From Thermoproteota archaeon (GTDB lineage: Archaea; Thermoproteota; Thermoprotei; Gearchaeales; Gearchaeaceae), in the NCBI GenBank assembly GCA_032249235.1, contig JAVVGF010000009.1:1-26242 (forward strand): a stretch of DNA of 26,242 bases, in the 5' to 3' direction. The translations under genes were made by a program, and so were the position numbers. Under the pieces are notes generated by a model, which was not told the DNA's origin, made no database searches, and worked only from the letters and a program-made list of their open reading frames with translations. The first letter of the stretch is position 1, and each line of letters opens with the position of its first letter. Of the stretch, positions 2,932 to 17,189 are shown one piece after another.

Positions 2932-2982
2932 TTTTAACAACTGGTAATATACCAGTAAGAAGGAGATTTAAAGTTGTTAAAA
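2932..2982. promoter_or_regulatory. Overlapping inverted repeats upstream of the RM gene (candidate operator)
   Basis: 11-bp IR ttttaacaact (2932-2942) / agttgttaaaa (2972-2982), plus 7-bp IR actggta-ata-taccagt (2940-2956). These lie just upstream of TATA-like tttattaa (2985-2992) and the ATG at 3021. Confidence 0.45.
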
Positions 2983-3020
2983 TGTTTATTAATCTTTAAA
3001 AATTCTTAATATAGGAAATC

Positions 3021-6000
3021 ATGAGTATTAAGTACGGAGAACGTTCGGCTCAAGGCTTAATTCTTCAGTGGATTAACCAAGTTATAAGAGAACAAAAACT
3101 TTCTTTTAAAAGAGCTGATCAAGAAGTTCAAGTTAAAACTATTCACGGTAAGGTTAGATATCCAGATATAGTTATTTGGGACAAATCAGGAGAAAAAGTT
3201 GCATGTCTTATTGAACTAAAAGTCCCTACAATTAGTCCTTATGATGAAGAATTGGTTGAAGATGCATTGAATAAATCCGTTATAGCTGGGATTCCCTTTT
3301 TCGTAACATGGAATGTAAATAAACTAGTTCTTTGGGAAACATTTAAGCCTGGAACTAATTTACTTGAAAGAAGATTACATCATGAAGATGTTTTAGATAT
3401 TAAAGATCTTAAAGATTTAGAGAAAGATGAGATTGAGAAGACCATAAAATCATTCTTGGAGAGATTTTTACAACGACTTCAGACATACTACGAAATAAAG
3501 GTAGCTAAGCCACCAGAGATATATGTTCTGCCTAAGCTTCCACCAGATGAAATCTTAGTTCATTATCTTAAAACCTTTGTCGATTCACTCTATATTCCTG
3601 TTTCCAATAATCTTATTAAGAAGAAAGAGAAAGATCCTAAATTTTATGAGGACTTAGTTCAATGGTTTGTTAGTCAAGGATGGTTATTTGAAGATACCGA
3701 AGATGACTATGATAGAGTTGCTAGACAAGCAATATATCTCTTGATTAACAAAATTTTGTTTTACAATATTCTAAAAGAAAGATTCGGTTTAAAAGAAATT
3801 GATGCTGGAAACATCTCTAGCGGTGAAGAACTTAAAAAGAAATTACAAGAATACTTTAATCGTTGTTTGAATATTAACCCGCGATATGGTATAATTTTTG
3901 CAGCAGATTTCTTAGAAAGGATCCCTCTTCCAGATGAAATTGTAAGCGGATTTACCCGCGTAATAACAGAGCTTAACAAATATGACTTCTCAAAAATAGG
4001 ATACGATATAATTGGAAGGATCTTTGAAAAGCTAATTCCGAAAACTGAGAGACATAAATTAGGACAGTATTTCACTTCGACAGATGTAGTTGATCTGATT
4101 TTAGGATTTACAATAAAACATCCTGATGATAAAGTATTGGATCCTGCATGCGGATCAGGGACATTCTTGGTTAGAGCATATCATAGAAAAAGATTCTTAG
4201 CTCAAAAGCTATTCAAAGAAGGAAAATATACAAAGCCATTCAAATCTCATGAAGAATTGGTTAAAGAACTTTGGGGAATAGATATTGCTAAATTCCCAGC
4301 TCATTTAGCTTTAATCAACATAGTTAGAGAAAACATAAAGGCTATTGAAACTATTCCCAACATAGCCTGTAAAGATTTCTTTGAAGTTTTACCTGGCAAA
4401 GAAACTCTTATGTATGAACTTGCTTTTCAAATACCAGGAGTAAAAGAGAAAGAACTTGAAGCTATATATCCTGAAGAATTTAGCGTGGTGGTGACAAATC
4501 CTCCTTATACAAGACAGGAAGAAATGGAGGACGTATTTTTGGGCGGTTATAAAGATAGGCTTCGAGAATTGATTAAAAAGACTTGGGGAATGGAAGTTAG
4601 CAAGAGATCTAGTATTTATGTGTACTTTTTCTTGCATGGAGCTAAATTCTTATCCAAACATGGAAGATTAGGTCTAATAACTTCAAATTCATGGCTTGAT
4701 GTAGACTTTGGTAAATACCTTCAAGAATTCTTCTTGAAAAACTTCAAGGTAATAGCGATTATAGAATCTAAGGTTGAAAGATGGTTTGAAGATGCTGATA
4801 TCAATACGGCAATAACCATCCTTGAAAGATGTGATGATAAAAAAGTAAGAGATTCTAATTTAGTGAAGTTTGTTTACCTTAAAAGGAAGTTGAGGGAAAT
4901 CATACCAGTTGGAGGGAATGAAGAGGAAAGATGGAATAATGTAGAAAAATTTGTTAACTTTATTGAAAACTGCGATAAAGATGAGAAGATTAGAAATCAA
5001 ATGAAGAAAATAGAGTTTCTTGGCAAAACGCTTTGGATTTATGAAGATGAGAATTTCAGAATTACGATGATCAGTCAAGCAGACCTTTGGGCTGAAGGAT
5101 GGAATGATGAAGAAAATAAATATGAAGGGTCAAAGTGGGGCAAATACATTAGAGCACCTGAAATTTTCTTTAAGATTTTAGAGAAAGGTAAGGAACTATT
5201 GGTTCCCCTAAAGAAAGTAGCTAAAGTAAACCCAGGAATTAAATCTGGGGCGGACAAATTTTTCTATTTGAAAGATGATGAGATTACAAGGTTTGGAATT
5301 GAGCGATCTTATATTAATACACCAATTATTAAATCTATCAGAGAATGTAAAAGGATAAGTGTTAAAAAGTCAGATTTAAGATATAAAGTACTGCTTGTTC
5401 ATGAAGATAAACATAAGCTCGTAGGTACAAATGTGTTAAAGTATATAGAATTAGGTGAGGAATGGGGATTATCAAATCCAGAAACTCACCCTACTTGTGG
5501 CAAACGAGAAAGATGGTATGATTTAGGAAAAAGAGATCCACCACCTATATTATGGCCTGACGTTATATTCACAAGATTCTTAGCACCCTTAAATGAAGCT
5601 GATGCACTTGCTGATTATGATCTTCATGAAATTAGACCTCATGTTGAAAACCCTAAATTAATTTGTGCAATATTAAATTCGACCTTAACCTTCCTTATGT
5701 CTGAATTAAATGGAAGAGTGAATCTAGGTCAAGGAAGTTTAAAAATGCAAAGTCATGAAATAGCTACTATTCCCATAATTGATCCTGAGAAATTATCGCA
5801 GGAAGTAAGAGCTCAGTTAGTAAGCATTATTGATGAAATGAAGGAAAGAGAAATTGAAGATGTCTTCAAAGAAATTGGTGCAACTAACGTGTGTGAAGTC
5901 TCATTAAATAAAATTAAACCTGATAGGCTAAAGTTAGATAGAATACTCTTATGTGATCTTTTAAGGTTATCCCAAAATGAGCTAATAGAAATGTATAGAG

Positions 6001-6494
6001 CTATTATTGATTTAGTAAAAACTAGAATTGAAAAAGCTAAAACTGTTACTAAAAGAAAAAAGAAGAAAGGTGTTGACGTAGAAGCTTTAGCAAATAGGAT
6101 TGTAAGCAGGCTAACTACGAAGATTGAGAAATTTCCCGATGCTTACCTAACCGGTTATAAAGGTTTGTGGTCAAAGGAAATAAAAATTCCTAAGGGACAA
6201 CCTACATTTGGAAGCGATATTAACGGATTTTATGTTCAAATAGAAGGAAAGGAAGTTTATAGAGGATGGGATCATGATGAAGCTAAGTTTATATATTTTG
6301 CCGCACTAACAGGAGCTTCAAGCGTAAAGTTACCTCTTGATAAAAATGCACTCATAGCAGCATTAGAAGCTTTTGAGAAAGATTATAGAAAGTTAAAGGA
6401 AGAAGTAGACACCCTTTTATCTACTATGATATCTGACGTGAAAGTTAGAAAGGAAGTTGAAGATAAAGTTTGGAGTTTACTCTTTTCTAGATAA
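3021..6494 (+). CDS. Type IIG-like fused restriction endonuclease / N6-adenine DNA methyltransferase with C-terminal TRD
   Basis: N-terminal PD-(D/E)XK (YPDIVIW...LIELK), GQYFT motif X, DPACGSGTFL motif I, TNPPY motif IV (gamma order), SNSWLDVDFG and a C-terminal TRD-like region. 1157 aa, intact. Confidence 0.92.
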   Translation: MSIKYGERSAQGLILQWINQVIREQKLSFKRADQEVQVKTIHGKVRYPDIVIWDKSGEKVACLIELKVPTISPYDEELVEDALNKSVIAGIPFFVTWNVNKLVLWETFKPGTNLLERRLHHEDVLDIKDLKDLEKDEIEKTIKSFLERFLQRLQTYYEIKVAKPPEIYVLPKLPPDEILVHYLKTFVDSLYIPVSNNLIKKKEKDPKFYEDLVQWFVSQGWLFEDTEDDYDRVARQAIYLLINKILFYNILKERFGLKEIDAGNISSGEELKKKLQEYFNRCLNINPRYGIIFAADFLERIPLPDEIVSGFTRVITELNKYDFSKIGYDIIGRIFEKLIPKTERHKLGQYFTSTDVVDLILGFTIKHPDDKVLDPACGSGTFLVRAYHRKRFLAQKLFKEGKYTKPFKSHEELVKELWGIDIAKFPAHLALINIVRENIKAIETIPNIACKDFFEVLPGKETLMYELAFQIPGVKEKELEAIYPEEFSVVVTNPPYTRQEEMEDVFLGGYKDRLRELIKKTWGMEVSKRSSIYVYFFLHGAKFLSKHGRLGLITSNSWLDVDFGKYLQEFFLKNFKVIAIIESKVERWFEDADINTAITILERCDDKKVRDSNLVKFVYLKRKLREIIPVGGNEEERWNNVEKFVNFIENCDKDEKIRNQMKKIEFLGKTLWIYEDENFRITMISQADLWAEGWNDEENKYEGSKWGKYIRAPEIFFKILEKGKELLVPLKKVAKVNPGIKSGADKFFYLKDDEITRFGIERSYINTPIIKSIRECKRISVKKSDLRYKVLLVHEDKHKLVGTNVLKYIELGEEWGLSNPETHPTCGKRERWYDLGKRDPPPILWPDVIFTRFLAPLNEADALADYDLHEIRPHVENPKLICAILNSTLTFLMSELNGRVNLGQGSLKMQSHEIATIPIIDPEKLSQEVRAQLVSIIDEMKEREIEDVFKEIGATNVCEVSLNKIKPDRLKLDRILLCDLLRLSQNELIEMYRAIIDLVKTRIEKAKTVTKRKKKKGVDVEALANRIVSRLTTKIEKFPDAYLTGYKGLWSKEIKIPKGQPTFGSDINGFYVQIEGKEVYRGWDHDEAKFIYFAALTGASSVKLPLDKNALIAALEAFEKDYRKLKEEVDTLLSTMISDVKVRKEVEDKVWSLLFSR

Positions 6495-6504
6495 GCTGTA
6501 TAAA

Positions 6505-7219
6505 ATGAAAAGAAATGAGATAATTAAATACATTGACGACATAAAGGATCCTAAAAAATTTCTTGAATATTGTAAAAAATATCATGAAGAAGAGGACGTA
6601 GATATAGCCTACTTAGTTTCAAGAAATGTTATTTCTAAAAATCCAGATAATATCAGTTTTATATTAGCGGGTGCTAAGCTCATTATTATAACTTGGAATG
6701 CGCTGAGATTTCAAAGATTACCAAAAGGAGTTAGAGAAAGTTTGGAAAATGATATACGTGAAGCTTATACGGAATCTAAATTGGATTTGAAAAAGATAAA
6801 AGGAGAAAGATTAGAGAACTTAAGCTTAAGCGATGACGATTTGAAGAAAACTATTAAGAAAATATTTCAAGAATTTTCATCCAAGAAATCTATAGGGTTT
6901 ACTGGTGCATCCAAAATTTTACACCTACTAAATCCTTACTTGTTTATGATGTGGGATTATAACATTAGAGAGGCATATCACAAGTTGCATACTAAGAATC
7001 ATGAATTAGGCGATCCTGATTGTTACCTTGAATTTCTTAAACAATCTCAAGAAATAATTAAGAACAATTTTAAGTAAAAGAAGTGAGAATGATATATGGA
7101 ATGACCATTTGACTTTTGTAGATAAAGATTTCATGGCTGCTTTTTCATTTAAGGAAAGTATACTAAAGATGTTAGACGAATGTAACTACATTAGATTTAC
7201 GTTAAACATAAATCTTTAG
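6505..7219 (+). pseudogene. HhH-type DNA glycosylase-like protein with one frameshift near 7063 (about 237 aa if repaired)
   Basis: Likely ATG at 6505. The motif SIGFTGASKILHLLNPYLFMMWD resembles an HhH followed by Lys...Asp. After the TAA at 7075-7077 the +1 frame continues TILSKRSENDIWNDH...KMLDECNYIRFTLNINL* to 7219. Confidence 0.55.
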
Positions 7220-10200
7220 GGAAATTCGAAAAAATACTGGCTTCTTCCACCAACTATACCTTTCTCTATAAGGGCATTGCTCGTTGCGATGTCCTTTAAA
7301 ATGAGATATCTTAGCAAAGCTACAGGGACTCCATAATGTATCATAGTAACTCTCGTTCCCTTGATATGAACCTTAAGGTCTACTTTATCATACTTCTTCT
7401 CTACCTTAAATTTGATTAACGTGCCAAGCACTATTTCAAATACATTTGTTATTTTTAAGCTATAAGGTTCATCTATACTGCTATCCACTCCAGTGAAAGT
7501 AATTTCTACCTCTAAATTTAGCAGCTTTGTTAAAGGAAACTTTTCTTTGCTTAACTCCTCTCGTATCTTTTTGATATCTTCTTCATTTCTTATTACGAAA
7601 AACTTAGTAGCCACAGGTATTTTAATAGTTATCCATTCTTTTTCTGATAAAGGTATTTTAACTATGCTCCAGCCTTTTTCATCCAAATCAAGAAAAGCTA
7701 TAATGTTAATCTCTCTTGATAACTCCTTTAATTCTTTTTTAGCTTCTTCGGGATTACTCCAAGTATATTCAAAAATGCTATCTAAAGTTCCAGACTGAAA
7801 TTTCTGTAACGTTTCCTTTATGACGGATTTTAAACTAACATTCCAAGGTCTTTCAAATGGATATCTTATTATGCTTTCACCTAATTGAGAAATCTTTTCC
7901 CTAGAAACTTCAATTAAATAACCGCTCTTAATTTTCTTAAAGGTTTCTATTCCACCCTTTATATCATAGTAAATTTTCATTGCTTGATTACCTGCTTCTT
8001 TTTCTATTATGACTTCATTTTGTGGAAAACCAAAATGTTCCTTTATCTGATCCTTAATCAATCTTGTGAAGGGCGACTTTTCGATTATATGTTTCTTTAC
8101 AAGTCCTTCAAATTCTTCAAGACTTATTTTTTCTAAAGCATGAAGAGGATTAATTATTTCCGATCTAACAGCAAAGCCTATAGGAGAAATAACGTATTTG
8201 ATAAGCAAGCTTACTTCACTGATTTTCTCGTAAATAGCTGCGGCTAATGTACGATTAATATTTTCTCCTAAAAATGTTATGAAAATCCAAGTTTTTAGAG
8301 AAGGAATGTGTTCGACTATAATTTTACCACCAGCAATAGCATTTACATAGGAATTTTCTATATTTTTAATGTAATCTAAGATTGTTTCTGCAACTTTTTC
8401 GTCTTTAATTAACTCAGAAGCTGTTTGTGGATTATTGATTATAGAACATAGAATTGTTAACATTTCTTTAGCAACCATTTCGTTTTTTTGAGGGCCTTCT
8501 CCTCTCCATGAAGGAACTTCTCCACCTTCTTTTGCTTCAACTGCAAACACTTTATGTTCTTTCTCATCTATTTCACTAACCTTCCAATTAGAACCTGCAA
8601 ACCTTATCACCATGCCTGTTGCTAAAGACCTATAAACAAAAGATGCATCAATCTCACCTAACTTTTTCTTTTTACCAAATCCCTGTTCAGCCCAAAGAGA
8701 GAAGGTTTCTCGTTTAGGAATCATACTAAAGAATTCTCTAAAATTAAACGAAGGCCACTCTATAGTTTCTAATTCCTCAAACCTCCATATTTTCCAAAAT
8801 CTATCTTTGGGAAACGGTGCTTCATTATTTAAGCTCAATAATCCACTTTTATCCAAATTGTGAATAACTTCGTTAAATTCCTCTTCAGAAAGCGTTTTAA
8901 ACAAGAAACATTTCTTAATTGTTTCATAAATAGACTTTAAGTTGATTGGCGTGAACTGATTTTTATAGCTTTTTATACCTTTATAATTGTGTAAAGCATA
9001 TCCTAAGATTTCTTTAGCTAGAACATCAAGAGGATTTTCTAAAATAATCGGTTCCTCAAGGAAATCTTTATTAAATAAACTTACTAACGCTAAACATTCT
9101 AAGAAGTCTTCAGGATCTGTAGAAATTATTTTGCAAACAGACTTTTCTCCCGGTTTATGAAAGCTTCTACCAGCTCTTTGAATTAAAGCGTTAACTTGAC
9201 CAGGAGATCTAAATTGGATAACCTGTTCTACATCACCAATATCTATACCTAGTTCTAGCGTTTTTGTAGCAATAACAGCTTTTAACAATCCTTCTTTAAA
9301 CTCCTTTTCAACAAACTCTTTTTCCTCAAATCCAATAGAACCATGATGTACTCCAACTTTTATGCCTTTCTTTTCGATTTCAGCTTTTAGTCTTTCCGCA
9401 GAATATCTTGAGTTTACGAATATCAAAGACTTTGTGCCACTGATATGCTCAGCAATCAATCTCGCACCCGCAATAAAAGGATCTTCATTTTCTTCAGGAG
9501 TTAAAGGTATAGCTAGTTTTATTTCAAACTCATGTACTCTTTTCTCAGGAGCACGTATAATCTTCAGTTTTCCATCTGAACCACCAAATACTTCTGAAAC
9601 TAATTCTGCGTTAGAAATCGTAGCTGATAAACAGATTCTTTGGAAGTTTCTTCCTGTAAGTTGTTTTAACCTTTCTAATAAAACCAATAATTGGTAACCT
9701 CTCTTAGAAGAAATAAGTTCATGAACTTCATCAATTACAACACATTTTATAGTTTTTAGATATGGCCACCAACGAGGAGACCAGTCAAGTAATATTTCCA
9801 AACTTTCTGGAGTTGTTATAACAATTTCAGGAACAGGCTTCTTAAATCCCTTATCTACATCACCGTAAAGAGGTCTGACCTTCAAGTTAAGCAAATAAGC
9901 ATAATTTTGTAATCTTTCAGTAAGGTCCTTTGTAAGAGCCTTAAGCGGATTAATATAAAGAATTTTAATGCCGATGTCTTCTTTTTCATTTAAAATTTTA
10001 TGTAAGAGCGGAAAAATAGCTGCTTCAGTTTTTCCAGAACCTGTAGGGCTTATTAAGAGAACGTGCTCGCCTTTAAGTATGGATTCAACACTAAGCTTTT
10101 GAATTTCGGTAGGTTCTGAGAAGCCAAATTTAAAAATTAAGTTTTGAAGCCTCTCATCTAGTAAGTTAAAAGGATAAATTATAGCCGTTTTATTCATCAT
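7216..10200 (-). CDS. lhr: Lhr-family DEAD/DEAH-box SF2 helicase with extended C-terminus
   Basis: PTEIQ Q-motif, SPTGSGKT, YINPLKAL, TTPESL, DEVH...KRG, SAT, VHHGS, TLELGIDIG, QRAGRS-H. Lhr-type downstream features FFSMIP, LGEID and PSWRGE are present. Confidence 0.88.
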   Translation of the reverse strand: MMNKTAIIYPFNLLDERLQNLIFKFGFSEPTEIQKLSVESILKGEHVLLISPTGSGKTEAAIFPLLHKILNEKEDIGIKILYINPLKALTKDLTERLQNYAYLLNLKVRPLYGDVDKGFKKPVPEIVITTPESLEILLDWSPRWWPYLKTIKCVVIDEVHELISSKRGYQLLVLLERLKQLTGRNFQRICLSATISNAELVSEVFGGSDGKLKIIRAPEKRVHEFEIKLAIPLTPEENEDPFIAGARLIAEHISGTKSLIFVNSRYSAERLKAEIEKKGIKVGVHHGSIGFEEKEFVEKEFKEGLLKAVIATKTLELGIDIGDVEQVIQFRSPGQVNALIQRAGRSFHKPGEKSVCKIISTDPEDFLECLALVSLFNKDFLEEPIILENPLDVLAKEILGYALHNYKGIKSYKNQFTPINLKSIYETIKKCFLFKTLSEEEFNEVIHNLDKSGLLSLNNEAPFPKDRFWKIWRFEELETIEWPSFNFREFFSMIPKRETFSLWAEQGFGKKKKLGEIDASFVYRSLATGMVIRFAGSNWKVSEIDEKEHKVFAVEAKEGGEVPSWRGEGPQKNEMVAKEMLTILCSIINNPQTASELIKDEKVAETILDYIKNIENSYVNAIAGGKIIVEHIPSLKTWIFITFLGENINRTLAAAIYEKISEVSLLIKYVISPIGFAVRSEIINPLHALEKISLEEFEGLVKKHIIEKSPFTRLIKDQIKEHFGFPQNEVIIEKEAGNQAMKIYYDIKGGIETFKKIKSGYLIEVSREKISQLGESIIRYPFERPWNVSLKSVIKETLQKFQSGTLDSIFEYTWSNPEEAKKELKELSREINIIAFLDLDEKGWSIVKIPLSEKEWITIKIPVATKFFVIRNEEDIKKIREELSKEKFPLTKLLNLEVEITFTGVDSSIDEPYSLKITNVFEIVLGTLIKFKVEKKYDKVDLKVHIKGTRVTMIHYGVPVALLRYLILKDIATSNALIEKGIVGGRSQYFFEFP

Positions 10201-10279
10201 TATTATTTACATAAACAGCTTAATTATTAGAAAATAATATGTATTTAACTTTCTTTAATATAACAGAGGTTGCTCTTAA
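10201..10279. promoter_or_regulatory. 79-bp divergent promoter region shared by the two helicase genes
   Basis: Head-to-head starts at 10200 and 10280 with an AT-rich spacer containing TATA-like elements. Exact elements were not resolved. Confidence 0.5.
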
Positions 10280-12631
10280 ATGAGTGATTTAAAAGACATA
10301 ACTTTGGCTTATCATTCTTTGATCGATCGTGAGTATAAAAAACATGAAGAAAAAGAAGGAAGAATAGAGGAAGCATATCTAACTTTGTCTGAAGCTATCA
10401 ATACTATAGCCTCAGCTTTGAAATGCGATGTGGATGTGGCGAAAACTCTTTTAGAGAATCTAATTAAAAGAGGTTTTATCGTTTACAATGGAGAAGATAA
10501 GATAAGAACTTTACATTTTGACGTGGCATATAGAGCATCAAACATTACAATCAAGTATGGAAGCCTACGTTATCCGTTAGAAACTAAAATTATTGTCAGA
10601 GACGAAAAAATACCTAGTTTTGCTGACCATTCATTTAATGAGATATCAAGTTTTGTTCCTAAAGATATATACCATATCGTCAAGTATGCTTTATATAAAG
10701 ATCCCAAGGGAATTGAGGGTATTGGTGAAATAGAGGGTTTTTCGGATTTTCAATTCAACGCTATAAAGGCTATCCTAAAAGGTGAAAGAAGGGCATACGT
10801 TCTTATAGCGCCTACCTCAGGCGGCAAAACTTATGCATTTCTAATACCTTCATTAATTATAATTTTACAGGATAAACTTAAGGAAAGAAACAAAAATAAT
10901 ATTAGAATTTTACTCGCTTATCCAAGAAAGTCTCTGGAAAGAGATCAATTTAATAAGATACTCACGATCCTATATAGAGTCAATCAATACTTTAAAAACT
11001 TTGGCCCAAAAGATATGAGAATAACTATTGGTATAGATGATGGAGAAACCCCTTATAAGAAAGATGTTGAATCTGGCTCATCCTTTAGAGGAACTATTTG
11101 TCCTGCTTGTGGGATAGGAGGAAAAGAAGGAGGCGAATTACAATATGCAAAAACTATCGATAAAATATGGATTCGGTGCTCAAATTGCGGAGCTTCATTT
11201 GACTGGATTTACGGATATAGAGAAGAGATTTGGGAGAGGAAACCTGATATTTTATTAACTAATGTCTGGACTCTTGATTGGCGACTCCCTAGTAAAACTA
11301 TTCAGCATGATTATGAAGTTTTTAAAGATCTCAAGATAATTGTATTAGATGAAGCTCACGTCTATCAATCCTTGCTGGGAGGAAATGTTAGATACATATT
11401 AAAAAGATTGGAAATAAGTTCAAAAAATGAACCATTAATTATATTATCCTCCGCAACAATCTCTAAGCCTAAAGAGTTTGCAAGGGACTTGCTTGATTTA
11501 GAACCCGATAAAGATTTTATTGTTATCGAATCTCTAGAAAAAGGAGAAAATAAAAAAGTTATTTACCTAGTCTTGGCAGTAAATCCATTAAGATCCTGGG
11601 AAACAGTTGTTTATGAACTTACTCTGCTTCTCAGCACAGTCTTTTATTATCGAAAAGCTCAAAGTGTTATATTTATTGATAGCATAAGAGAACTATATAG
11701 GATATTCCATCAAGCTAAAGTAGCAGCCGTTTATTATTATGAACCCAAAGATCATTTTAATCAAAAATTAGTTCCTGATCCTTTAGATCCTTATGCGTAT
11801 TGGCCCTATATGCTTGAGTCTAATTTTGATCCTAAAAAGACCCCTCTTGAAATGTTTCAAAAAGTAAGGCTTCATCACGCCGGTGTGAAGGATAGAGAGA
11901 AAATAGAAAAGGAATTCGTAGATGGTAAACTTGGAGTGTTAATTTCGACCTCAACTTTAGAACTCGGAGTTGACTATCCCAATGTAACTTTTATAGGGAT
12001 TGTAGGGGTGCCTTTTATGTTAGAAAGCATACCTCAAAGGATAGGACGTGCTGGAAGGAATATTGAGAAGACCCTCTATACAACTCTAGCTATAATAATA
12101 CTCAAAAATACACCTATGGAGCTTTATTATCTATATAACCACGAAGATCTCATAGAAGGATATAGGAATAAAGAAATTCCGGTTGCATGGAAAAATACAG
12201 CCGTAAAAAGGTACCACGTTCTTTCATTGCTTATGGATGAAATGGGTAGGGAAGGAAAAAATACCTATATTCTGGGTCCGGATGGAAAGTTTACAAACTT
12301 AGATGAATTCGTTGATGAAATAATAAAAATAGCAACAAAAGCGAAAGCTTTATTAAGAAAACTTAATGCGAAAGTCAGAAAAGATGAAGATGTCGATAGT
12401 GAGCTTTTATTTGATGAATTGAATAAAGAGTTTAAAAAGTTACCTATGAAGATAGATGAATGGAAGAAACTGAACGATTATGCTCTTGTTGCAAACGAAG
12501 CACTAAGCACTATTATGAAAGTTGCTAGAAGGGTGTTGGTATTTGGAAAAAAAGTGGGCGATAAAGAATTGGTAAATCACACTATTGAGCTGTTCAAATT
12601 AATAAGGAAAATTTATCCATGGGCAATATAG
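10280..12631 (+). CDS. DEAH-box SF2 helicase of the DrmA/DpdJ/DruE-like (DUF1998-associated) type, with N-terminal wHTH-like region and Zn-ribbon insert
   Basis: FSDFQ, APTSGGKT, YPRKSLERDQ, a CPAC...CSNC insert inside RecA1, DEAH, SSAT, HHAG, STSTLELGVD and QRIGRAGR. Confidence 0.85.
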   Translation: MSDLKDITLAYHSLIDREYKKHEEKEGRIEEAYLTLSEAINTIASALKCDVDVAKTLLENLIKRGFIVYNGEDKIRTLHFDVAYRASNITIKYGSLRYPLETKIIVRDEKIPSFADHSFNEISSFVPKDIYHIVKYALYKDPKGIEGIGEIEGFSDFQFNAIKAILKGERRAYVLIAPTSGGKTYAFLIPSLIIILQDKLKERNKNNIRILLAYPRKSLERDQFNKILTILYRVNQYFKNFGPKDMRITIGIDDGETPYKKDVESGSSFRGTICPACGIGGKEGGELQYAKTIDKIWIRCSNCGASFDWIYGYREEIWERKPDILLTNVWTLDWRLPSKTIQHDYEVFKDLKIIVLDEAHVYQSLLGGNVRYILKRLEISSKNEPLIILSSATISKPKEFARDLLDLEPDKDFIVIESLEKGENKKVIYLVLAVNPLRSWETVVYELTLLLSTVFYYRKAQSVIFIDSIRELYRIFHQAKVAAVYYYEPKDHFNQKLVPDPLDPYAYWPYMLESNFDPKKTPLEMFQKVRLHHAGVKDREKIEKEFVDGKLGVLISTSTLELGVDYPNVTFIGIVGVPFMLESIPQRIGRAGRNIEKTLYTTLAIIILKNTPMELYYLYNHEDLIEGYRNKEIPVAWKNTAVKRYHVLSLLMDEMGREGKNTYILGPDGKFTNLDEFVDEIIKIATKAKALLRKLNAKVRKDEDVDSELLFDELNKEFKKLPMKIDEWKKLNDYALVANEALSTIMKVARRVLVFGKKVGDKELVNHTIELFKLIRKIYPWAI

Positions 12632-15255
12632 ATACGTATATAGAGCAAATAAAAAAGAAACTAGATGAAATTCGTAAGCTGATACGCTCTAAAGAAGATG
12701 AGCTTTATGAAAAAGGATTGTTTAAAGGTTCCAAGGTCGCTAGTTCAATATTAGAAGATATTGCAGATGGAAGAAATAAAATTGAAACTAACAAGATCCA
12801 GTTGCTCAAGTTTATGGAATTATCTAAGAAGTTTAAAGATTCTCCTGAAGAACTCATCTATCTTTTATCATTGCCCGATGTACCAGCTTCGGTAGGATCA
12901 GGGAAACAGATAACAGAGGCTATAGCAGGTTTTAGGGGTCTTGGGATAGAGACTATAGATCACAAAATCGATGAAATAACATATGAAAAAGTTCCATTAA
13001 AAGCAGGTGAACAACCATTATCAGAGGTATCCGTAACGAGCTTTATATACAGAGTCCCACCTTTTGAATTAACTAAATGCGTATATGAAACAGGAAATGA
13101 TAAAGAAATAACAGATATTTTAGGCTCTAGATTTGTCTGGCTTATAAAGCCTAAAGAGGTATCTTGGGATTCGTGGAATGAAATTCTAAATAAAACAACA
13201 GATGGCAGACCTACTTCATTAATCAGGGGTAAATACACTTATGAAGTAGCATTAATTATACCTAAAACTATAGAATTGATCGATCTATCAACAAAAAGTT
13301 TAACCGTGGAGGTTGGAGGGAAATATCAGTTTTTCTTAAAGTTGGGAAGTTCCATGATAGAGAAAGAAACAAATTTAATAAGAACTAAACAAAATTTGCT
13401 TCAATATTTAAGAGAAAAAGAAAAGAATTTAGAAAGAAGCATAGGGAAAACACTGGCGTCTTGGGGATTAAGGCTAGATTATCCTTACTTTTGTTATAAG
13501 GGTTTAGGATTATCGACTGATCCATTTGATAATAGTTGTCCATTTAGAGAAAGATGCCGGCTTGGTAAAGAAAATGGCGGCCCTTGCGACGGAAAAATAT
13601 TTTGGAGCGGAAAATATTATAGAAGAAAATTTTATCCAAAATCTTATCCTTTAAGGAGATTACGTATTGGTAGCGGAGGTTTAAATATATATTATGACAA
13701 ATTCCCACTTTCCCTTATTGATTTTGCAGCATATGAAAAGAAAAGAGTTGAAGCCAGGTGGTATGCAGTTGAGATTGGTACATGGTTTATTAATGCCAGA
13801 CCTGCAGTAAGGATATTTTTCGACACTGAGATTGGCTATGCAATACCAACATCTGTCATGGAAATCTCTTTTGAGAGAGAATGGCTTATCAATAAAGTAA
13901 AAGAAATCTTAGATAAAGAAAAAGAAATAAGAAAAAATTTAGCTCTTAAATTTATCCTTTATAAAGCACTAGGTAAAACTCTTGACTACAATCAGTTAAG
14001 CAAGACCGTTCAAAATTTAATGAATAAAGAAAACGAATTGTCAAAGAAATATATCAAATATGTTGAAGGGTCTGATATTGATGACGAATTTGTAAATTTT
14101 GTTAAAAGAATTCTTTTACATTCAATAAAGCATAATTTAACTCAATATATTTTAGAAAAGTTTGCCGGTGTTGACATGAGTTTTATACTTGCAAAATATT
14201 ATCACAGATATAGCGATAAAATAATCTTAGCAGAAAATGCAAAAAATGGGAGGATAGGTATAGTAGATACTGTTATTAGAGAAATTAAAGAAAAAGGATT
14301 ACATACCTTCATCTATAAGTTCGCAGATTGGGTATCTAGCTATCTTACAGCTCATTCCGATAACTTTGAAAGAGTAACCTTGTTAAGAAAGAAGGAGGCT
14401 GAAAAAACATTAAATCAAGTAATTGATAAATTACAAAAAGGAGATTCGAAAGAACAAAAAATTGCCAAAAAGATTGAGAAAGTATGTAAAAAAGTTGAGG
14501 AATTTAAAAAGAAATTAGATGACTCAAATATAGAGCTTGACATAACACTTGCTAGAACTGTACTTTTAGCTGGTGGAATTATAAGTGAAAGTGACGTAGA
14601 AGAAATAGGTGATTATTTTGATGATATACTTGAAAGATTCGGTTTTAAGCCCTGTTTAGATGGATGTAACGGATGTGTTAGGTTAGAGAGATATTGTGGG
14701 GAAGGAATTCAGCAAATATTAACAACCAGTAGAATGCTACTTCATAAATTTATAGAAGATATAAAAGATACTATAGTGCGTGGATTAACTAAAAGATCTA
14801 ATGAATTAGGAAAATACATAGAACCCATATTGTTTAATGCGAAAAAAAGTTTGGATGTTATTTGCCCATACATTTCTCCGACTTATGCAAAAAAATTAGT
14901 TGAATTAGCTAGTAGAGGAGTAAAAGTAAGGATAATAACTTGGATGCCTAAAAAAGAAGATAAAGAATATAGCTTCCAAAGAGAATCTCTTAGAATTTTG
15001 AGAGAAAACCTTGGACAGGAGAATTTATTAGTAAAAGTGGAAGACAAACCAGAAATTAAGTTGATTCATGATAAAACCTATATCGTAGATAATATTGTTC
15101 TTACAGGATCATTCAATTTGACCGAGAGCGCATTTCACGGAAACTTTGAAAGAGCTGAGATAAAACTTCATCCACAAACGCTTATAAATGAAAAGAATCA
15201 GTTCGAGGAATTATGGATGAGAGCTACAGATCTCTTAAAATATGAAATTAACTAG
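12619..15255 (+). CDS. DUF1998 (MZB)-domain protein fused to a C-terminal PLD/Nuc-family nuclease
   Basis: LLHSIKHNL, ENAKNGRIG and CLDGCNGC...C match the DUF1998 pattern. The C-terminus has VICPYIS, RGVKVRII and HDKTYIVD...TGSFNLT (a single HKD). There is an extra Cys cluster (CPFRERC...GPC). 13-nt overlap with the upstream helicase. Confidence 0.8.
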   Translation: MGNIDTYIEQIKKKLDEIRKLIRSKEDELYEKGLFKGSKVASSILEDIADGRNKIETNKIQLLKFMELSKKFKDSPEELIYLLSLPDVPASVGSGKQITEAIAGFRGLGIETIDHKIDEITYEKVPLKAGEQPLSEVSVTSFIYRVPPFELTKCVYETGNDKEITDILGSRFVWLIKPKEVSWDSWNEILNKTTDGRPTSLIRGKYTYEVALIIPKTIELIDLSTKSLTVEVGGKYQFFLKLGSSMIEKETNLIRTKQNLLQYLREKEKNLERSIGKTLASWGLRLDYPYFCYKGLGLSTDPFDNSCPFRERCRLGKENGGPCDGKIFWSGKYYRRKFYPKSYPLRRLRIGSGGLNIYYDKFPLSLIDFAAYEKKRVEARWYAVEIGTWFINARPAVRIFFDTEIGYAIPTSVMEISFEREWLINKVKEILDKEKEIRKNLALKFILYKALGKTLDYNQLSKTVQNLMNKENELSKKYIKYVEGSDIDDEFVNFVKRILLHSIKHNLTQYILEKFAGVDMSFILAKYYHRYSDKIILAENAKNGRIGIVDTVIREIKEKGLHTFIYKFADWVSSYLTAHSDNFERVTLLRKKEAEKTLNQVIDKLQKGDSKEQKIAKKIEKVCKKVEEFKKKLDDSNIELDITLARTVLLAGGIISESDVEEIGDYFDDILERFGFKPCLDGCNGCVRLERYCGEGIQQILTTSRMLLHKFIEDIKDTIVRGLTKRSNELGKYIEPILFNAKKSLDVICPYISPTYAKKLVELASRGVKVRIITWMPKKEDKEYSFQRESLRILRENLGQENLLVKVEDKPEIKLIHDKTYIVDNIVLTGSFNLTESAFHGNFERAEIKLHPQTLINEKNQFEELWMRATDLLKYEIN

Positions 15256-16588
15256 TTGGAGTTATCTTTAAGATACATAAATATTTTTTACGTTTATGTA
15301 ATCCTTGAGTAGAGGAGGGAATCTTAGGAAAGTCATAACTTGAATGAAGCATAAAGCCATCACCGATACCTTCTTTTATCTTTCTGATAGTTTTTTTTAA
15401 TAAATGCTTATCTTTGTTATGCAGAATCAAAATAATCTTACCATCTTTACGTAAGTGATTAATGTAATTAGTAACAATCTCACAAAGCTTAGCGTTATAC
15501 CATTCTAAATTTTTACCTACTTTCCTATTAACGCATATTTCCTTTTTCCAGTAATCATAAGTTGAAAATCGCGTATCATTACAACTACCTTCTAACCATT
15601 TTTGCCAAAGATAAGTTAATTCAAAGTAATTTATTTCGTCATAGTGCGGGGGATCCAAAACTATAAGATCCACTTTAGGCAATTCATAACAAGCATCGAC
15701 TGCGTCAGCGCAACGTATATAGATGAACTTTTTTTTAGGTGTAATTATTCTTCCATCAAAAGACACTTCGACATGGTAGGGTGAAACTATTCTCAACCAT
15801 TTTTTCTTAAAAGAGTAAAGGAGAGATAATCTTCTCAAGAAAGTTCTACAAAAATTACGTTCCTCTCTTAATGGTGGAACCCAGTATCTGGGTAATTTCC
15901 ACGAAGGGCCCCCATTAGTCGGATGCGGAATCATTTTTGTTGCATTAACCAAGGAAGCGATAAAGACAAGTTTTAAAAGATCTCCTTGAGATTTGTCTTT
16001 TCTCCAGATTTTCTCAATATAGGAGTAAAGTTTAGATACAGCATACAAGTTTCGTCTAGTAAATAATTCTTTAATCTCAATTTGTCTATGCGGGCCGTCT
16101 TTGAAATCTATATTAGTTCCAGGATATACAAATTTCCCTTCTGGATACCAAAATTTCGTTTTAAGATTCTCTTCTACGTACATATACTCTTTAATTATTT
16201 CTCTCTCTTTTGTTTCTCTACCAGAAATGGATTTGAGTAGAATAACTTCATCATTATTCCAAACAGCAAAGTTTACTTTTTCAAAGTTATTAATCGTGTA
16301 AACTTCCTCCTCAATTTCGGAACAAATTTCTCTCATATCTTCAATAGTTTCTCTCTTTAAAGTTTCACCATTTAATACATTATAAGTTATAAATATGGAG
16401 ACGGGATTTATATCAGAAAGGAATCCTGAAACACCAGCAAGAATAGCACAAAAACCTGAAGACCCAGAACCGCAGAACGGATCAACCAATAATTTAGAAT
16501 TTTTGATCTCATAAAACAAAAGTTCAGGATCCTTTCTTGCCCAAAATTTTATTAGAGTATGGATATTAAGTGTGACATTCATCCTCAT
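15248..16588 (-). CDS. DNA amino-methyltransferase (N6-A or N4-C), motif I N-terminal and motif IV C-terminal
   Basis: HTLIKFWARK, DPFCGSGS (motif I), DINP, ELFTRRNL and LDPPHYDEINY (motif IV variant). This resembles the COG1743/DUF1156-related archaeal MTases, but without a Zn ribbon. Confidence 0.85.
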   Translation of the reverse strand: MRMNVTLNIHTLIKFWARKDPELLFYEIKNSKLLVDPFCGSGSSGFCAILAGVSGFLSDINPVSIFITYNVLNGETLKRETIEDMREICSEIEEEVYTINNFEKVNFAVWNNDEVILLKSISGRETKEREIIKEYMYVEENLKTKFWYPEGKFVYPGTNIDFKDGPHRQIEIKELFTRRNLYAVSKLYSYIEKIWRKDKSQGDLLKLVFIASLVNATKMIPHPTNGGPSWKLPRYWVPPLREERNFCRTFLRRLSLLYSFKKKWLRIVSPYHVEVSFDGRIITPKKKFIYIRCADAVDACYELPKVDLIVLDPPHYDEINYFELTYLWQKWLEGSCNDTRFSTYDYWKKEICVNRKVGKNLEWYNAKLCEIVTNYINHLRKDGKIILILHNKDKHLLKKTIRKIKEGIGDGFMLHSSYDFPKIPSSTQGLHKRKKYLCILKITPTS

Positions 16589-16590
16589 TT

Positions 16591-16740
16591 CTAAATTTTT
16601 ACTTCATCTTTAATTTTAAGAGCGTTAAGCCGTCTAAAAGTTGCTGATACTACCCGAATTTGTTTTACAGCCTCGCTAATTAAGAAAGTAGGCAAAGCCT
16701 TCTTGATCAATTCTGAAGATTTTTGTCGTTGTTTATACAT
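16591..16740 (-). CDS. 49-aa ORF with a degenerate MerR/excisionase-like HTH, directly upstream of the MTase (not in ORF track)
   Basis: MYKQRQKSSELIKKALPTFLISEAVKQIRVVSATFRRLNALKIKDEVKI*. The stop lies 2 nt before the MTase ATG. ISEAVKQIRVVSATFRR resembles an ISEAAK.LGVS..TLRR consensus. Confidence 0.4.
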   Translation of the reverse strand: MYKQRQKSSELIKKALPTFLISEAVKQIRVVSATFRRLNALKIKDEVKI

Positions 16741-16947
16741 CACAATTTTTATTTGTATTTAGTATATATATATTCACACCATCCGCTTAATATAAGATAA
16801 TTATATCAAAGAGTGTATATCAAACTGACTACGGATAAAAATTTAAATGATTCAACAATTATTCATACTTTTACAAACGCAGAAACCTTATTTTATCAAC
16901 TTTAAATTATTTTAAAATATATCCACTAAAAATTAAATTTTCGCCAA

Positions 16948-17133
16948 CTATGCCTTCACAAACCCTTTACCTTTTTCAAATTTCAAGGTAAAGCTGTGCT
17001 TTCCATTTCTATAATATTCCCTAAATTGTGTGTTACATTTCGGACAAACATAAGCATTTACTGTAAATTGACCATACTTCCAGCTTTTACTTTGCTTAGT
17101 TACGTTAGTTTTACAGTTTGGGCAGACAGCCAT
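16948..17133 (-). CDS. Small Zn-ribbon protein (CPNC...CPKC), paralog of 2464..2655
   Basis: KSWKYGQFTVNAYVCPKCNTQFREYY...SFTLK aligns with KSWKFRFYDVKRIECPKCNGVFNYY...EFVIR. Confidence 0.8.
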   Translation of the reverse strand: MAVCPNCKTNVTKQSKSWKYGQFTVNAYVCPKCNTQFREYYRNGKHSFTLKFEKGKGFVKA

Positions 17134-17189
17134 CTACATATTATTTGCTTAAAAGAATATAAGGCTTAAAAATAAAAAAGAAGAATAAA

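What the first reader, a model, noticed from the sequence alone, without database searches (positions are those of the whole stretch)
7216..16740. Candidate new archaeal defence module: Lhr helicase + DrmA/DpdJ-like helicase + DUF1998-PLD fusion + DNA methyltransferase
Seen: four intact genes locked together by a 79-bp divergent promoter, a 13-nt overlap and an 8-nt convergent overlap, inside a region full of RM, nuclease and TA genes. Known: helicase + DUF1998 + PLD is the core of DISARM (DrmA/B/C, with an MTase and either the SNF2 protein DrmD or DrmE) and of DpdJ/DpdK. No SNF2, DrmE, DpdA transglycosylase or Druantia partner is visible here. An Lhr helicase, usually regarded as a repair enzyme, sits head-to-head instead. 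Inference: a methylation-gated two-helicase/PLD-nuclease antiviral system in which Lhr fills the accessory motor role.
Basis: partly seen in the sequence, partly recalled or inferred. Interest (0 to 1): 0.85.

Follow-up and report, generated by a model that had tools for sequence, protein, structure and literature searches.

The report
Archaeal DISARM-like defence island with Lhr
This archaeal gene block looks like a new variant of the DISARM anti-virus system, with the nuclease fused to the sensor protein and a dedicated Lhr-type helicase as its second motor.

Summary
Four intact genes sit at 7216-16588: Lhr-type helicase (-), DrmA-like helicase (+), an 878-aa protein (+) and a DPPH amino-methyltransferase (-). 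They are joined by a 79-bp divergent spacer, a 13-nt overlap and an 8-nt convergent overlap.

The 878-aa protein is a DrmB-DrmC fusion. Pfam sees only its PLD domain. The AlphaFold model (pLDDT 89) matches DrmB of the solved DrmAB complex over residues 124-716 (Z 12.7) and Nuc over 719-874 (Z 18.2).

In 53 metagenome loci (37-87% identity), the Lhr gene is divergent from the DrmA gene in 33 of 33 assessable loci. The methyltransferase follows in 38 of 47. Synteny ends at the block edges.

This Lhr is a fourth, accessory copy. It belongs to its own clade, apart from three vertically inherited paralogues.

The unit is wider than reported. It also holds a type IIG R-M enzyme, a variable small gene and a small wHTH gene. 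All of 2874-16945 is replaced in a sister genome.

More distant relatives keep the DrmA / DrmB-PLD / methyltransferase triad without Lhr.

Verdict: a new variant of a known kind (DISARM-like). No function was tested.

The parts
3021..6494 (+). Type IIG restriction-modification enzyme (1157 aa). N-terminal PD...ExK nuclease motif, gamma-type N6-adenine methyltransferase (DPACGSG, TNPPY) and a C-terminal target-recognition region. It travels with the module.
   Evidence: Pfam Eco57I 1.2e-20, N6_Mtase 5.2e-19, MmeI_Mtase 1.3e-10. PADLOC REase_MTase_IIG 2.8e-56 over residues 8-658; PglX models only about 1e-13. Motifs read. A homologue lies upstream of Lhr in 20 of 21 loci scored by the script, plus L057 and L061, which the script dropped.
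6457..7077 (+). Small gene of unknown family (206 aa as listed; an internal Met at residue 16 is a possible start). Variable filler between the IIG gene and the Lhr gene.
   Evidence: No Pfam, PADLOC or NCBIfam hit. Present in many close loci. Replaced by other small ORFs in L045, L048, L049 and L060. Absent in L062 and L074, where the IIG and Lhr genes abut with gaps of 50 and 9 bp.
7216..10200 (-). Accessory Lhr/BrxHI-type SF2 helicase (994 aa). Motif I is SPTGSGKT and motif II is DEVH. The C-terminal ~250 residues differ from housekeeping Lhr.
   Evidence: Pfam DEAD 2.7e-34, Helicase_C 2.4e-18, WH_Lhr 3e-09. PADLOC BrxHI 7.3e-105, SngC 1.9e-99. Best solved relative is M. smegmatis Lhr, 5v9x, 7e-50. 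Motifs read. Own clade in the tree. Present in 33 of 33 assessable loci.
10201..10279 (.). 79-bp AT-rich divergent spacer between the Lhr and DrmA-like genes. Presumed to hold both promoters.
   Evidence: Coordinates; sequence. No promoter was tested, because the sigma-70 scanner does not apply to archaea.
10280..12631 (+). DrmA-like (YprA-family) SF2 helicase (783 aa). Motif I is APTSGGKT and motif II is DEAH. A Cys-rich insert (CPACG...CSNCG) sits in RecA1.
   Evidence: PADLOC DrmA 4.3e-36, DpdJ 6.2e-34. NCBIfam DpdJ 1.5e-28, far under its cut-off. Best solved relative is MrfA/YprA, 6znp, 3.5e-19. Sequence. Invariant motifs in 18 homologues.
12619..15255 (+). DrmB-DrmC fusion (878 aa). N-terminal helical hairpin (1-84), OB/connector/DUF1998-like body (about 124-716) with two Cys clusters, then a single-HKD PLD nuclease domain (719-874).
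   Evidence: AlphaFold2 model with pLDDT 89.1 and pTM 0.82. VIA-align: DrmB 7s9w_B Z 12.7, rmsd 3.9, 290 residues aligned; MrfA 6znp_A Z 11.7; Nuc 1bys_A Z 18.2. Invariant across 44 homologues: H501, H505, E539, D681, C683, C686, C693. In at least 90% of them: C679, H817, K819, N833.
15248..16588 (-). Amino-methyltransferase (446 aa) with motif I near the N-terminus and DPPH about 270 residues later. Related to DUF1156-type defence methyltransferases. Presumed self-marking enzyme.
   Evidence: PADLOC MTase_II 9.3e-24 and 4.3e-21. NCBIfam DUF1156_antiphage 3.5e-11, partial. DPFCGSG and DPPH are kept in all 38 module-linked copies. No solved relative by sequence.
16591..16743 (-). Small ORF (50 aa) directly upstream of the methyltransferase gene. 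It is a short relative of a 70-95-aa winged-helix-like ORF found at this place in other loci. Possible controller of methyltransferase expression.
   Evidence: ORF. tblastn: the 75-aa L040 version is found at this position in 18 loci, and the window version matches L038/L039 at 56%.

Best explanation
The block is a DISARM-like anti-virus / anti-plasmid system of hot-spring archaea, carried in a variable defence slot.

Shown by computation:
- A split YprA-family motor. The DrmA-like helicase gene is followed, with a 13-nt overlap, by a gene for a DrmB-like OB/connector/zinc (DUF1998) body covalently fused to a single-HKD PLD nuclease.
- A DPPH amino-methyltransferase with intact SAM and catalytic motifs, encoded convergently behind a small wHTH gene.
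- A dedicated clade of Lhr/BrxHI-type helicase, always divergently paired with the DrmA gene.
- A type IIG R-M enzyme almost always next to it.

Inferred, by analogy with the solved Serratia DrmAB complex (passages of PMC9142583):
- DrmA and the DrmB-PLD protein form a heterodimer.
- The heterodimer loads on single-stranded or 5'-overhang ends of unmethylated incoming DNA and translocates using ATP.
- The fusion brings the nuclease to the substrate. A single HKD domain forms an active site only as a dimer (established for Nuc-type PLD nucleases), so cleavage would need two complexes or a 2:2 assembly.
- The methyltransferase, and perhaps the IIG enzyme, marks host DNA and keeps the system off.
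- The Lhr helicase takes the accessory-motor place that the SNF2 protein DrmD/BrxHII holds in class I DISARM and ARMADA. It would unwind or strip DNA to feed single strands to the core.
For: Anatomy.

Families.

Fold of the fusion protein: DrmB Z 12.7 over 290 residues, MrfA Z 11.7, Nuc Z 18.2.

Catalytic and zinc residues are invariant or nearly so in 44 homologues. Helicase motifs are intact. Methyltransferase motifs are kept in 38 of 38 copies.

Linkage in 53 metagenome loci (9 clusters at 70% identity, GC 31-50%):
- DrmA gene present in 43 of 43 assessable loci.
- Lhr present in 33 of 33 assessable loci. The script gave 31; L057 and L061 were mis-scored, because an over-long ORF call overlapped the DrmA start. 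Searches show Lhr in both.
- Methyltransferase present in 38 of 47.
- Only 1 of 19 loci keeps any of the window's genes beyond the methyltransferase.

Accessory nature:
- The same-genus, same-family and two same-order genomes lack the fusion gene.
- Those genomes hold only the three other Lhr paralogues, at 32-39% identity.
- Among 401 genomes of the phylum, no other genome has a hit above 476 bits, against 2200 for the window's own gene.

Tree: the module Lhr clade has 100% SH-aLRT support, and the three own paralogues group with their orthologues in relatives.

Island: in the sister genome G394 the flanks 2406-2863 and 16946-17143 are conserved, while the 14 kb between them is replaced by 5.4 kb holding an unrelated IIG-like gene and a 598-aa gene.

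The wider family keeps the helicase / DrmB-PLD / methyltransferase triad in 8 of 8 distant loci.
Against: No experiment, methylome or binding evidence exists.

The methyltransferase is absent next to the fusion gene in 9 of 47 loci (3 of 8 assessable subclades). One of these, L070, has a 1294-aa SF1 helicase in its place.

The 8 distant relatives have no Lhr, so the core can exist without it.

The DrmA-like helicase scores almost equally on DrmA and DpdJ models.

Pfam, PADLOC and NCBIfam DrmB/DUF1998 models do not see the fusion protein itself. Foldseek listed only PLD matches among the rows shown.

The DrmB match at Z 12.7 is ranked 18th, below the PLD hits, in a partly helical model.

The metagenome loci are related to one another, so the counts are not independent events. 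Mosaic identity in L059 (IIG 95%, Lhr 86%, fusion protein 75%) shows that parts can recombine.
Confidence: 0.7

Rival explanations
1. Two or three independent systems happen to sit side by side in a defence hotspot: a self-sufficient type IIG R-M enzyme, a stand-alone Lhr-type helicase, and a three-gene DISARM-like unit (helicase, DrmB-PLD, methyltransferase). Lhr is linked by co-inheritance of the island, not by function.
For: Eight distant relatives have the triad without Lhr. The IIG enzyme has its own nuclease motif and looks self-sufficient. Variable genes lie between the IIG and Lhr genes. L059 is mosaic. The sister genome holds another IIG-like gene alone in the same slot.
Against: Lhr is divergently paired with the DrmA gene across a short spacer in 33 of 33 loci, down to about 40% identity and across GC 31-50%, while everything beyond the block changes. 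The Lhr forms a clade of its own, with a score gap from 594 to 495 bits to all other Lhr. In 401 genomes of the phylum, neither it nor the full-length fusion gene was found outside the window's genome.
Confidence: 0.17
2. A DNA-repair module. Lhr and YprA/MrfA-type helicases are repair enzymes, and the PLD domain would be a repair nuclease analogous to MrfB.
For: The best solved relatives by sequence are the repair helicases Lhr (5v9x) and MrfA (6znp). MrfA also matches the fusion protein by fold.
Against: The genome already has three conserved Lhr paralogues. The block is missing from the same-genus, same-family and same-order genomes. It sits in a replaceable slot beside R-M genes. It carries its own DNA methyltransferase. 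In the YprA tree of the Bell et al. preprint, split helicase-plus-DUF1998 operons with PLD belong to the defence branch (sections 5 and 8 of 10.1101/2025.09.15.676423).
Confidence: 0.05
3. A Dpd-type system in which a DpdJ/DpdK-like helicase-nuclease restricts DNA lacking a 7-deazaguanine modification.
For: DpdJ and DpdK models hit the helicase (6.2e-34) and the PLD domain (2.6e-07) about as well as DrmA and DrmC models do. Fused 1593- and 1677-aa relatives resemble an unsplit DpdJ.
Against: None of the window ORFs scanned hit a transglycosylase or a 7-deazaguanine synthesis family. The conserved partner is an amino-methyltransferase. The helicase and the DUF1998 part are split, as in DISARM.
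Confidence: 0.03

Closest known systems
DISARM class I (DrmD, DrmMI, DrmA, DrmB, DrmC; Serratia system, structure 7S9W)
   Same: A split YprA-type motor: a helicase gene followed by a gene for the OB/connector/DUF1998 body. A PLD nuclease, a DNA methyltransferase, a second helicase and a defence-island setting are also shared. The fusion protein matches DrmB by fold, and the helicase matches DrmA models.
   Different: DrmB and DrmC are one polypeptide here. [quoted passage not shown] The second helicase is Lhr/BrxHI-type (Ski2-like), not SNF2. The adjacent methyltransferase is a small DPPH enzyme related to DUF1156-type enzymes, and no DrmM model is among its 15 PADLOC hits. The PglX-related enzyme nearby keeps a nuclease motif.
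DISARM class II (DrmE, DrmA, DrmB, DrmC, DrmMII)
   Same: A DrmA/DrmB/DrmC core plus a methyltransferase.
   Different: No DrmE and no C5-cytosine methyltransferase appear among the hits shown.
Dpd (DpdJ helicase-DUF1998, DpdK PLD)
   Same: A YprA-family helicase plus a PLD nuclease. The HMM scores are similar to those for DISARM models.
   Different: No deazaguanine genes are in the window. The helicase and DUF1998 are split. A methyltransferase is the conserved partner.
ARMADA (YprA-like helicase + BrxHII-like SNF2 helicase + PglX-like methyltransferase; Bell et al. 2025 preprint)
   Same: The same logic: a YprA-family motor plus a second BREX-type helicase plus a PglX-related methyltransferase, in archaea too (section 5 of the preprint).
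   Different: ARMADA helicases are unsplit with a Vsr-type nuclease, and the second helicase is SNF2 (sections 5 and 8). Here the motor is split, the nuclease is PLD and the second helicase is Lhr. The word Lhr does not occur in that text.
BrxHI of BREX type 2 and SngC of Shango
   Same: They are the best PADLOC matches of the Lhr protein (7.3e-105 and 1.9e-99). BrxHI is described as Ski2-like with an Lhr-like C-terminal domain (passages of PMC12839542). Both show that Lhr-type helicases are used in defence.
   Different: No PglZ, BrxC, PglW, BrxD, SngA or SngB match is among the hits shown for the window.
Archaeal housekeeping Lhr (aLhr1, aLhr2, aLhr3; Hajj et al. 2021, PMC8301817)
   Same: The same Lhr-core domain order.
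   Different: The window's genome and its four closest relatives each have three such paralogues. The window's Lhr is a fourth copy in a separate clade, and its last ~150 residues are not covered by alignments to housekeeping Lhr.

Membership tests
DISARM | DrmA: an SF2 DEAD/DEAH helicase of the YprA family encoded without the DUF1998 part | tested here: met
   PADLOC DrmA PDLC02570 4.3e-36 and PDLC02569 1.4e-27. The Pfam hits are DEAD and Helicase_C only, with no MZB domain in this protein. Caveat: DpdJ models score almost as well.
DISARM | DrmB: a DUF1998 (OB/connector/zinc) protein encoded by the next gene | tested here: met
   Met by fold and motif, not by HMM. VIA-align gives 7s9w_B Z 12.7, rmsd 3.9, 290 residues aligned. 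The Cys cluster is invariant. MZB hits 3 of 44 homologues. There is no Pfam, PADLOC or NCBIfam DrmB/MZB hit on the window protein itself.
DISARM | DrmC: a PLD-family nuclease encoded as a separate gene after drmB | tested here: not met
   A PLD domain with an intact HKD motif is present (PLDc_2 1.8e-19; DrmC models 2.1e-07; Nuc Z 18.2). It is fused to the DrmB-like body in one 878-aa ORF. The fusion is kept in the homologues: 39 of 44 carry PLDc_2.
DISARM | Methyltransferase of type DrmMI (PglX-like N6-adenine) or DrmMII (C5-cytosine) | tested here: inconclusive
   The 15 PADLOC hits of the 446-aa methyltransferase include no DrmM model. The neighbouring IIG enzyme is PglX-related only at about 1e-13, and only its best 25 of 67 PADLOC hits were visible.
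DISARM | DrmD (SNF2 helicase) or DrmE | tested here: not met
   No SNF2-family or DrmE model appears among the hits shown for the window ORFs scanned. For Lhr and the DrmA-like helicase only the best 25 PADLOC families were visible.
Dpd | DpdA/DpdB transglycosylase and 7-deazaguanine synthesis genes alongside DpdJ/DpdK | tested here: not met
   None of the window ORFs scanned hit such a family. The rest of the genome was not searched for them.
BREX type 2 | PglZ, BrxC, PglX, PglW and BrxD together with BrxHI | tested here: not met
   Only the BrxHI model matches (7.3e-105). PglX models match the IIG enzyme only weakly. No PglZ, BrxC, PglW or BrxD appears among the hits shown.
Lhr-core helicases | DEAD + Helicase_C + Lhr winged helix + Domain 4 (DEAD_assoc) | tested here: met
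   The first three are above their Pfam cut-offs. DEAD_assoc scores 18.7 bits, under its cut-off of 23.5, in the window protein, but is precomputed for many clade members. Best solved relative: Lhr 5v9x, 7e-50.
Type IIG restriction-modification enzymes | One polypeptide with a PD-(D/E)xK nuclease, a gamma-class N6-adenine methyltransferase (NPPY) and a target-recognition region | tested here: met
   PADLOC REase_MTase_IIG 2.8e-56 over residues 8-658. Eco57I, N6_Mtase and MmeI_Mtase by Pfam. The PD...ELK, DPACGSG and TNPPY motifs were read. No activity was tested.

The most novel reading that the evidence does not exclude
This is a third class of DISARM, confined so far to hot-spring archaea. 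In it, a BrxHI/Lhr-type motor is an obligatory subunit in place of the SNF2 protein, and the PLD nuclease is hard-wired to DrmB as the true effector. The co-travelling type IIG enzyme and the DPPH methyltransferase would supply sequence-specific self-marking, making a single integrated R-M/DISARM hybrid. Because the nuclease is fused, this variant could show directly how DISARM-type systems destroy DNA, which is unresolved for the bacterial systems.
Probability: 0.35. Interest if true: 0.75.

Novelty: new variant of a known kind. Interest (0 to 1): 0.6.

Why it matters
How DISARM degrades DNA is still unclear. In the studied Serratia system, DrmC neither co-purifies with DrmAB nor is required (passages of PMC9142583). 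A natural DrmB-PLD fusion, kept across a broad family, argues that the PLD nuclease works at the DrmAB complex, and it offers a simpler object for biochemistry.

The strict pairing with a dedicated Lhr clade adds a third type of accessory motor to YprA-family systems, after the SNF2 and UvrD-like helicases. It also gives a defined, testable role to a member of the poorly understood archaeal Lhr family.

It also extends the short list of defence systems described for crenarchaeal-type thermophiles.

Tried and rejected
- Pfam on the 878-aa protein at E<=10 gave no DUF1998/MZB hit.
- A profile of 44 homologues against PDB sequences found only PLD and coiled-coil matches, not DrmB.
- Foldseek against the PDB listed only PLD-type matches among the rows shown. 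DrmB and MrfA appeared only in the all-against-representatives VIA-align search.
- The genome-contig scan found one relative, a MAG 77% identical with the same synteny. It is the same contig as metagenome locus L045, so it adds nothing independent.
- The viral-contig scan found no relative.
- Co-folding DrmA-like residues 1-700 with Lhr residues 700-994, both as 18-row alignments, gave 'no answer' (score 0.00). This is not evidence either way.
- The Lhr C-terminal 295 residues were modelled (pLDDT 82). The best match was a winged-helix protein at Z 5.1, and no row reached Z 8. That is only a weak hint of a winged helix, and the last ~110 residues stay unassigned.
- The one RNA run found (X1, a metatranscriptome labelled hot springs, holding 12% of the sampled words) is held as contigs. 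Its pieces cover parts of the IIG, Lhr, DrmA-like and fusion genes; the eight pieces listed (211-530 nt) differ at 0-20 places each. The tool warns that DNA can be present in such libraries, so transcription is not shown. Parts without cover say nothing.
- The sigma-70 promoter scanner was not used, because the organism is archaeal.
- An 18-nt inverted repeat (2966-2983 / 16890-16907, 94% complementary) brackets the block. It was not tested against chance in this AT-rich DNA.
As a result, the contexts of module-clade Lhr proteins known only from the protein database (P0198, P0204, P0206-P0208, P0210) could not be seen.
- Supplementary tables of the Bell et al. preprint, which may list this clade, could not be read.
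- Claim 'not in print': searches found no paper linking Lhr with DISARM/DrmA. The only listed paper holding both words was an unrelated cancer paper. The library lacks most subscription journals.

Full report
OBSERVATION

They are 7216-10200 (-) 994 aa, 10280-12631 (+) 783 aa, 12619-15255 (+) 878 aa and 15248-16588 (-) 446 aa. The 79-bp divergent spacer, the 13-nt overlap and the 8-nt convergent overlap all follow from these coordinates. GC content is about 31% throughout, with no compositional break.

WHAT THE PROTEINS ARE

Protein 1 is an Lhr-core helicase.
- Pfam finds DEAD, Helicase_C and WH_Lhr above their cut-offs. Domain 4 falls just below its cut-off.
- The best solved relative is M. 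smegmatis Lhr.
- The best defence models are BrxHI (7.3e-105) and SngC (1.9e-99).
- Motifs I and II are intact.

Protein 2 is a YprA-family helicase.
- It scores 4.3e-36 on a DrmA model and 6.2e-34 on a DpdJ model.
- Its best solved relative is MrfA/YprA.
- It has intact GKT and DEAH motifs.

Protein 3 shows only a C-terminal PLD domain to Pfam, even at E<=10.
- Its homologues share invariant H501, H505, E539, D681, C683, C686 and C693. Nearly invariant are C679, the second Cys cluster C292/C307/C313, and H817, K819 and N833.
- Three of 44 homologues hit the MrfA zinc-binding (DUF1998) family.
- An AlphaFold2 model built on 44 sequences has pLDDT 89.1 and pTM 0.82.
- Foldseek found only PLD relatives among the rows shown.
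- Aligning the model to 48,161 PDB representatives gave three key matches. Residues 719-874 match Nuc with Z 18.2. [quoted passage not shown] Residues 85-716 match the DUF1998 helicase MrfA (6znp_A; Z 11.7).
- The protein is therefore a DrmB-DrmC fusion. It also has an N-terminal helical hairpin (1-84) and a long helical insert (about 561-635).

Protein 4 has motif I (DPFCGSG) at residues 36-42 and DPPH at 312-315.
- Its best models are PADLOC type II methyltransferases (9.3e-24), plus a partial match to the DUF1156 anti-phage methyltransferase family.
- Both motifs are kept in all 38 module-linked copies.

IS IT A UNIT?

A search of 1.84 billion representative proteins found a small family around the fusion protein: 18 hits at E<=1e-30. 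It includes full-length relatives of about 870 aa, fused forms of about 1600 aa that carry the helicase as well, and forms of about 970 aa.

A metagenome scan returned 53 loci with 37-87% identity to the fusion protein. They fall into 46, 38, 15 and 9 clusters at 95, 90, 80 and 70% identity. Their GC content ranges from 31 to 50%.

Gene maps and a tally give the following.
- The DrmA-like gene lies directly upstream of the fusion gene in 43 of 43 assessable loci.
- The Lhr gene is divergent from the DrmA-like gene in 33 of 33 assessable loci. The script counted 31 and mis-scored L057 and L061, where my over-long ORF call overlapped the DrmA start. Searches show Lhr in both. This covers 6 of 6 assessable 70% clusters.
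- The methyltransferase gene is convergent behind the fusion gene in 38 of 47 loci. It is absent in L068-L071, L080, L081, L083, L084 and L089, which is 3 of 8 assessable clusters.
- As a control, only 1 of 19 loci with at least 2 kb beyond the methyltransferase keeps any of the window's downstream genes. That locus is L039, the closest relative.
- Three loci (L084, L086, L088) hold only truncated remnants of the fusion gene.

So conservation is specific to the block.

THE UNIT IS WIDER THAN REPORTED

A homologue of the upstream 1157-aa protein lies beyond Lhr in 20 of the 21 loci the script could score. Nineteen have the same orientation, at 38-95% identity. L081 is reversed, at 27%. L066 has only about 0.9 kb of sequence there. 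L057 and L061 also have the homologue.

That protein is a type IIG R-M enzyme. PADLOC REase_MTase_IIG scores 2.8e-56. Pfam finds Eco57I, N6_Mtase and MmeI_Mtase. It has PD...ELK, DPACGSG and TNPPY motifs.

The genes between the IIG gene and the Lhr gene vary from locus to locus. In L062 and L074 there are none.

The small ORF upstream of the methyltransferase is a short relative of a 70-95-aa ORF found at that position in 18 loci.

Comparison with a same-family genome (G394) fixes the island limits. Window 2406-2863 and 16946-17143 are conserved at 79-86% identity. These flanks contain small zinc-ribbon genes. The 14 kb between them is replaced in G394 by 5.4 kb encoding an unrelated IIG-like protein and a 598-aa protein; the IIG-like protein is 30% identical over 186 residues. 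The slot is therefore a variable defence hotspot, and everything from the IIG gene to the wHTH gene is one segment of gain or loss.

IS THE LHR A HOUSEKEEPING GENE?

No.
- The genome has three other Lhr-like genes of about 890-930 aa at 35-37% identity.
- The same-genus, same-family and two same-order genomes each have those three (32-39% identity to the window's Lhr). None has an orthologue of the window's Lhr, and none has the fusion gene.
- Three archaeal Lhr groups (aLhr1-3) co-occurring in Sulfolobales, Desulfurococcales and Acidilobales are described in passages of PMC8301817.
- In a database search, the window's Lhr has a family of about 990-1003-aa relatives at 39-92% identity. The full-length ones score at least 700 bits and shorter partial ones down to 594. 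There is then a drop to 495 bits for ordinary ~945-aa Lhr, which cover only 84% of it.
- In a quick maximum-likelihood tree of 60 rows (LG+G4, SH-aLRT only), the module-linked and close database sequences form one clade of 23 rows with 100% support. That clade is sister to the ordinary Thermoprotei Lhr. Each of the three own paralogues groups with its orthologues in the relatives, in the order of kinship.
- Among 401 genomes sampled from the phylum, no genome but the window's has a hit above 476 bits or a full-length fusion gene.

Source labels for clade members read Aenigmarchaeota, Nitrososphaerota and Thermoprotei archaeon. The archaeal assignment therefore holds.

THE WIDER FAMILY

Eight distant relatives of the fusion protein, from genomes of the same phylum, were fetched with their surroundings.
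- All eight have a DrmA-like helicase next to, or fused with, a DrmB-PLD-like protein.
- Seven have an ORF that BLAST links to the 446-aa methyltransferase within the 20 kb. It is directly adjacent in four.
- The eighth has a homologue of one of those ORFs.
- None has an Lhr gene.
- Other partners recur. A large SF1 helicase lies beside the fused gene in G080, and a homologue (35% identity over full length) follows the fusion gene in L070.

The conserved core is therefore helicase + DrmB-PLD + amino-methyltransferase. Lhr is the accessory motor of one subfamily.

COMPARISON WITH WHAT IS KNOWN

DISARM is defined by DrmA, DrmB, DrmC, a methyltransferase (DrmMI or DrmMII) and DrmD or DrmE (passages of PMC9142583 and PMC11529989). 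Here the DrmA and DrmB features are met. The PLD is present but fused. The methyltransferase is of another family. DrmD and DrmE are missing.

The Bell et al. preprint (10.1101/2025.09.15.676423; abstract, section 5 and passages of sections 7, 8 and 24 read) makes four relevant points.
- It notes that split helicase/DUF1998 genes are typical of DISARM.
- It describes ARMADA as a YprA helicase plus a BrxHII-like SNF2 helicase plus a PglX-like methyltransferase.
- It never mentions Lhr.

BrxHI of BREX type 2 is described as a Ski2-like helicase with an Lhr-like C-terminal domain (passages of PMC12839542). The present block thus parallels class I DISARM and ARMADA, with a BrxHI-type motor in place of the BrxHII-type one. 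Three literature searches found no paper linking Lhr with DISARM.

MECHANISM

See Best explanation. Only the anatomy, folds, motifs and linkage are shown. Complex formation, DNA-end sensing, methylation gating, PLD dimerisation and the role of Lhr are inferences from the Serratia DrmAB work and from the general properties of Nuc-type PLD nucleases and Lhr helicases.

VERDICT

This is a new variant of a known kind. Interest is 0.6, for three reasons:
- a natural DrmB-nuclease fusion;
- a dedicated defence clade of archaeal Lhr;
- an unexpectedly tight association with a type IIG enzyme.

All of this still lacks functional evidence.

Noticed in passing
window 2464-2655 (+), 2709-2873 (+) and 16948-17133 (-): Small Cys4 zinc-ribbon ORFs (63, 54 and 61 aa) flank the island on both sides. 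They are the conserved anchors shared with genome G394 (79-86% DNA identity). An 18-nt inverted repeat (2966-2983 / 16890-16907, 94% complementary) lies just inside them.
   Followed up: partly
L086 275-12006: An SNF2 + NOV_C helicase (1122 aa), a DUF1156 methyltransferase (906 aa), a DUF499 protein (874 aa) and a 216-aa ORF are followed by a 297-aa remnant of the fusion protein's PLD end and an intact copy of the 446-aa-type methyltransferase with its wHTH gene. One system appears to have overwritten part of the other. Similar DUF1156/DUF499-like genes lie near the distant relatives L108, L113 and L114.
   Followed up: partly
L070 3941-7825 and L107 15442-19146: A large SF1 (AAA_19/AAA_30/UvrD_C_2) helicase of 1294 and 1234 aa, 35% identical over full length, sits beside the DrmB-PLD gene in two distant lineages. 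In L070 it sits where the methyltransferase usually is.
   Followed up: partly
L059: Mosaic identity to the window: IIG enzyme 95%, Lhr 86%, DrmA-like 79-82% (and split into two ORFs), fusion protein 75%, methyltransferase 75%. This suggests recombination inside the island.
   Followed up: no
window 7216-7960 (Lhr residues about 745-994): The C-terminal ~250 residues of the module-linked Lhr are conserved to the very last residues within the clade, but are not aligned to housekeeping Lhr. The model (pLDDT 82) gives only a weak winged-helix match (Z 5.1) and nothing for the last ~110 residues.
   Followed up: partly
window 24245-25425: A UPF0175-domain protein, whose N-terminal part weakly matches a DarG model (1.6e-07), is followed by a DUF3368 protein that matches the PADLOC candidate system PDC-S70 (1.8e-13). 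This is probably a toxin-antitoxin-like pair.
   Followed up: no
window 19669-20307: A 212-aa ORF with weak DUF4145 (7.5e-05) and RiboL-PSP HEPN (3.7e-03) matches. With its upstream 274-aa neighbour it is shared only with the closest locus, L039.
   Followed up: no
L083 2876-4850: Two transposase genes (IS110-family, and an rve/DDE type) lie directly after the fusion gene, where the methyltransferase would be. Two SF1 helicase genes follow.
   Followed up: no
L062 11008-14418: A second, 1136-aa Lhr-like gene (28% identical to the window's Lhr) lies just beyond the methyltransferase.
   Followed up: no
L115 (G394:C6) 3425-8325: The same chromosomal slot in a sister genome holds an unrelated IIG-like methyltransferase protein (1033 aa) followed by a 598-aa protein with no Pfam family. 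This may be another two-gene defence cassette.
   Followed up: partly
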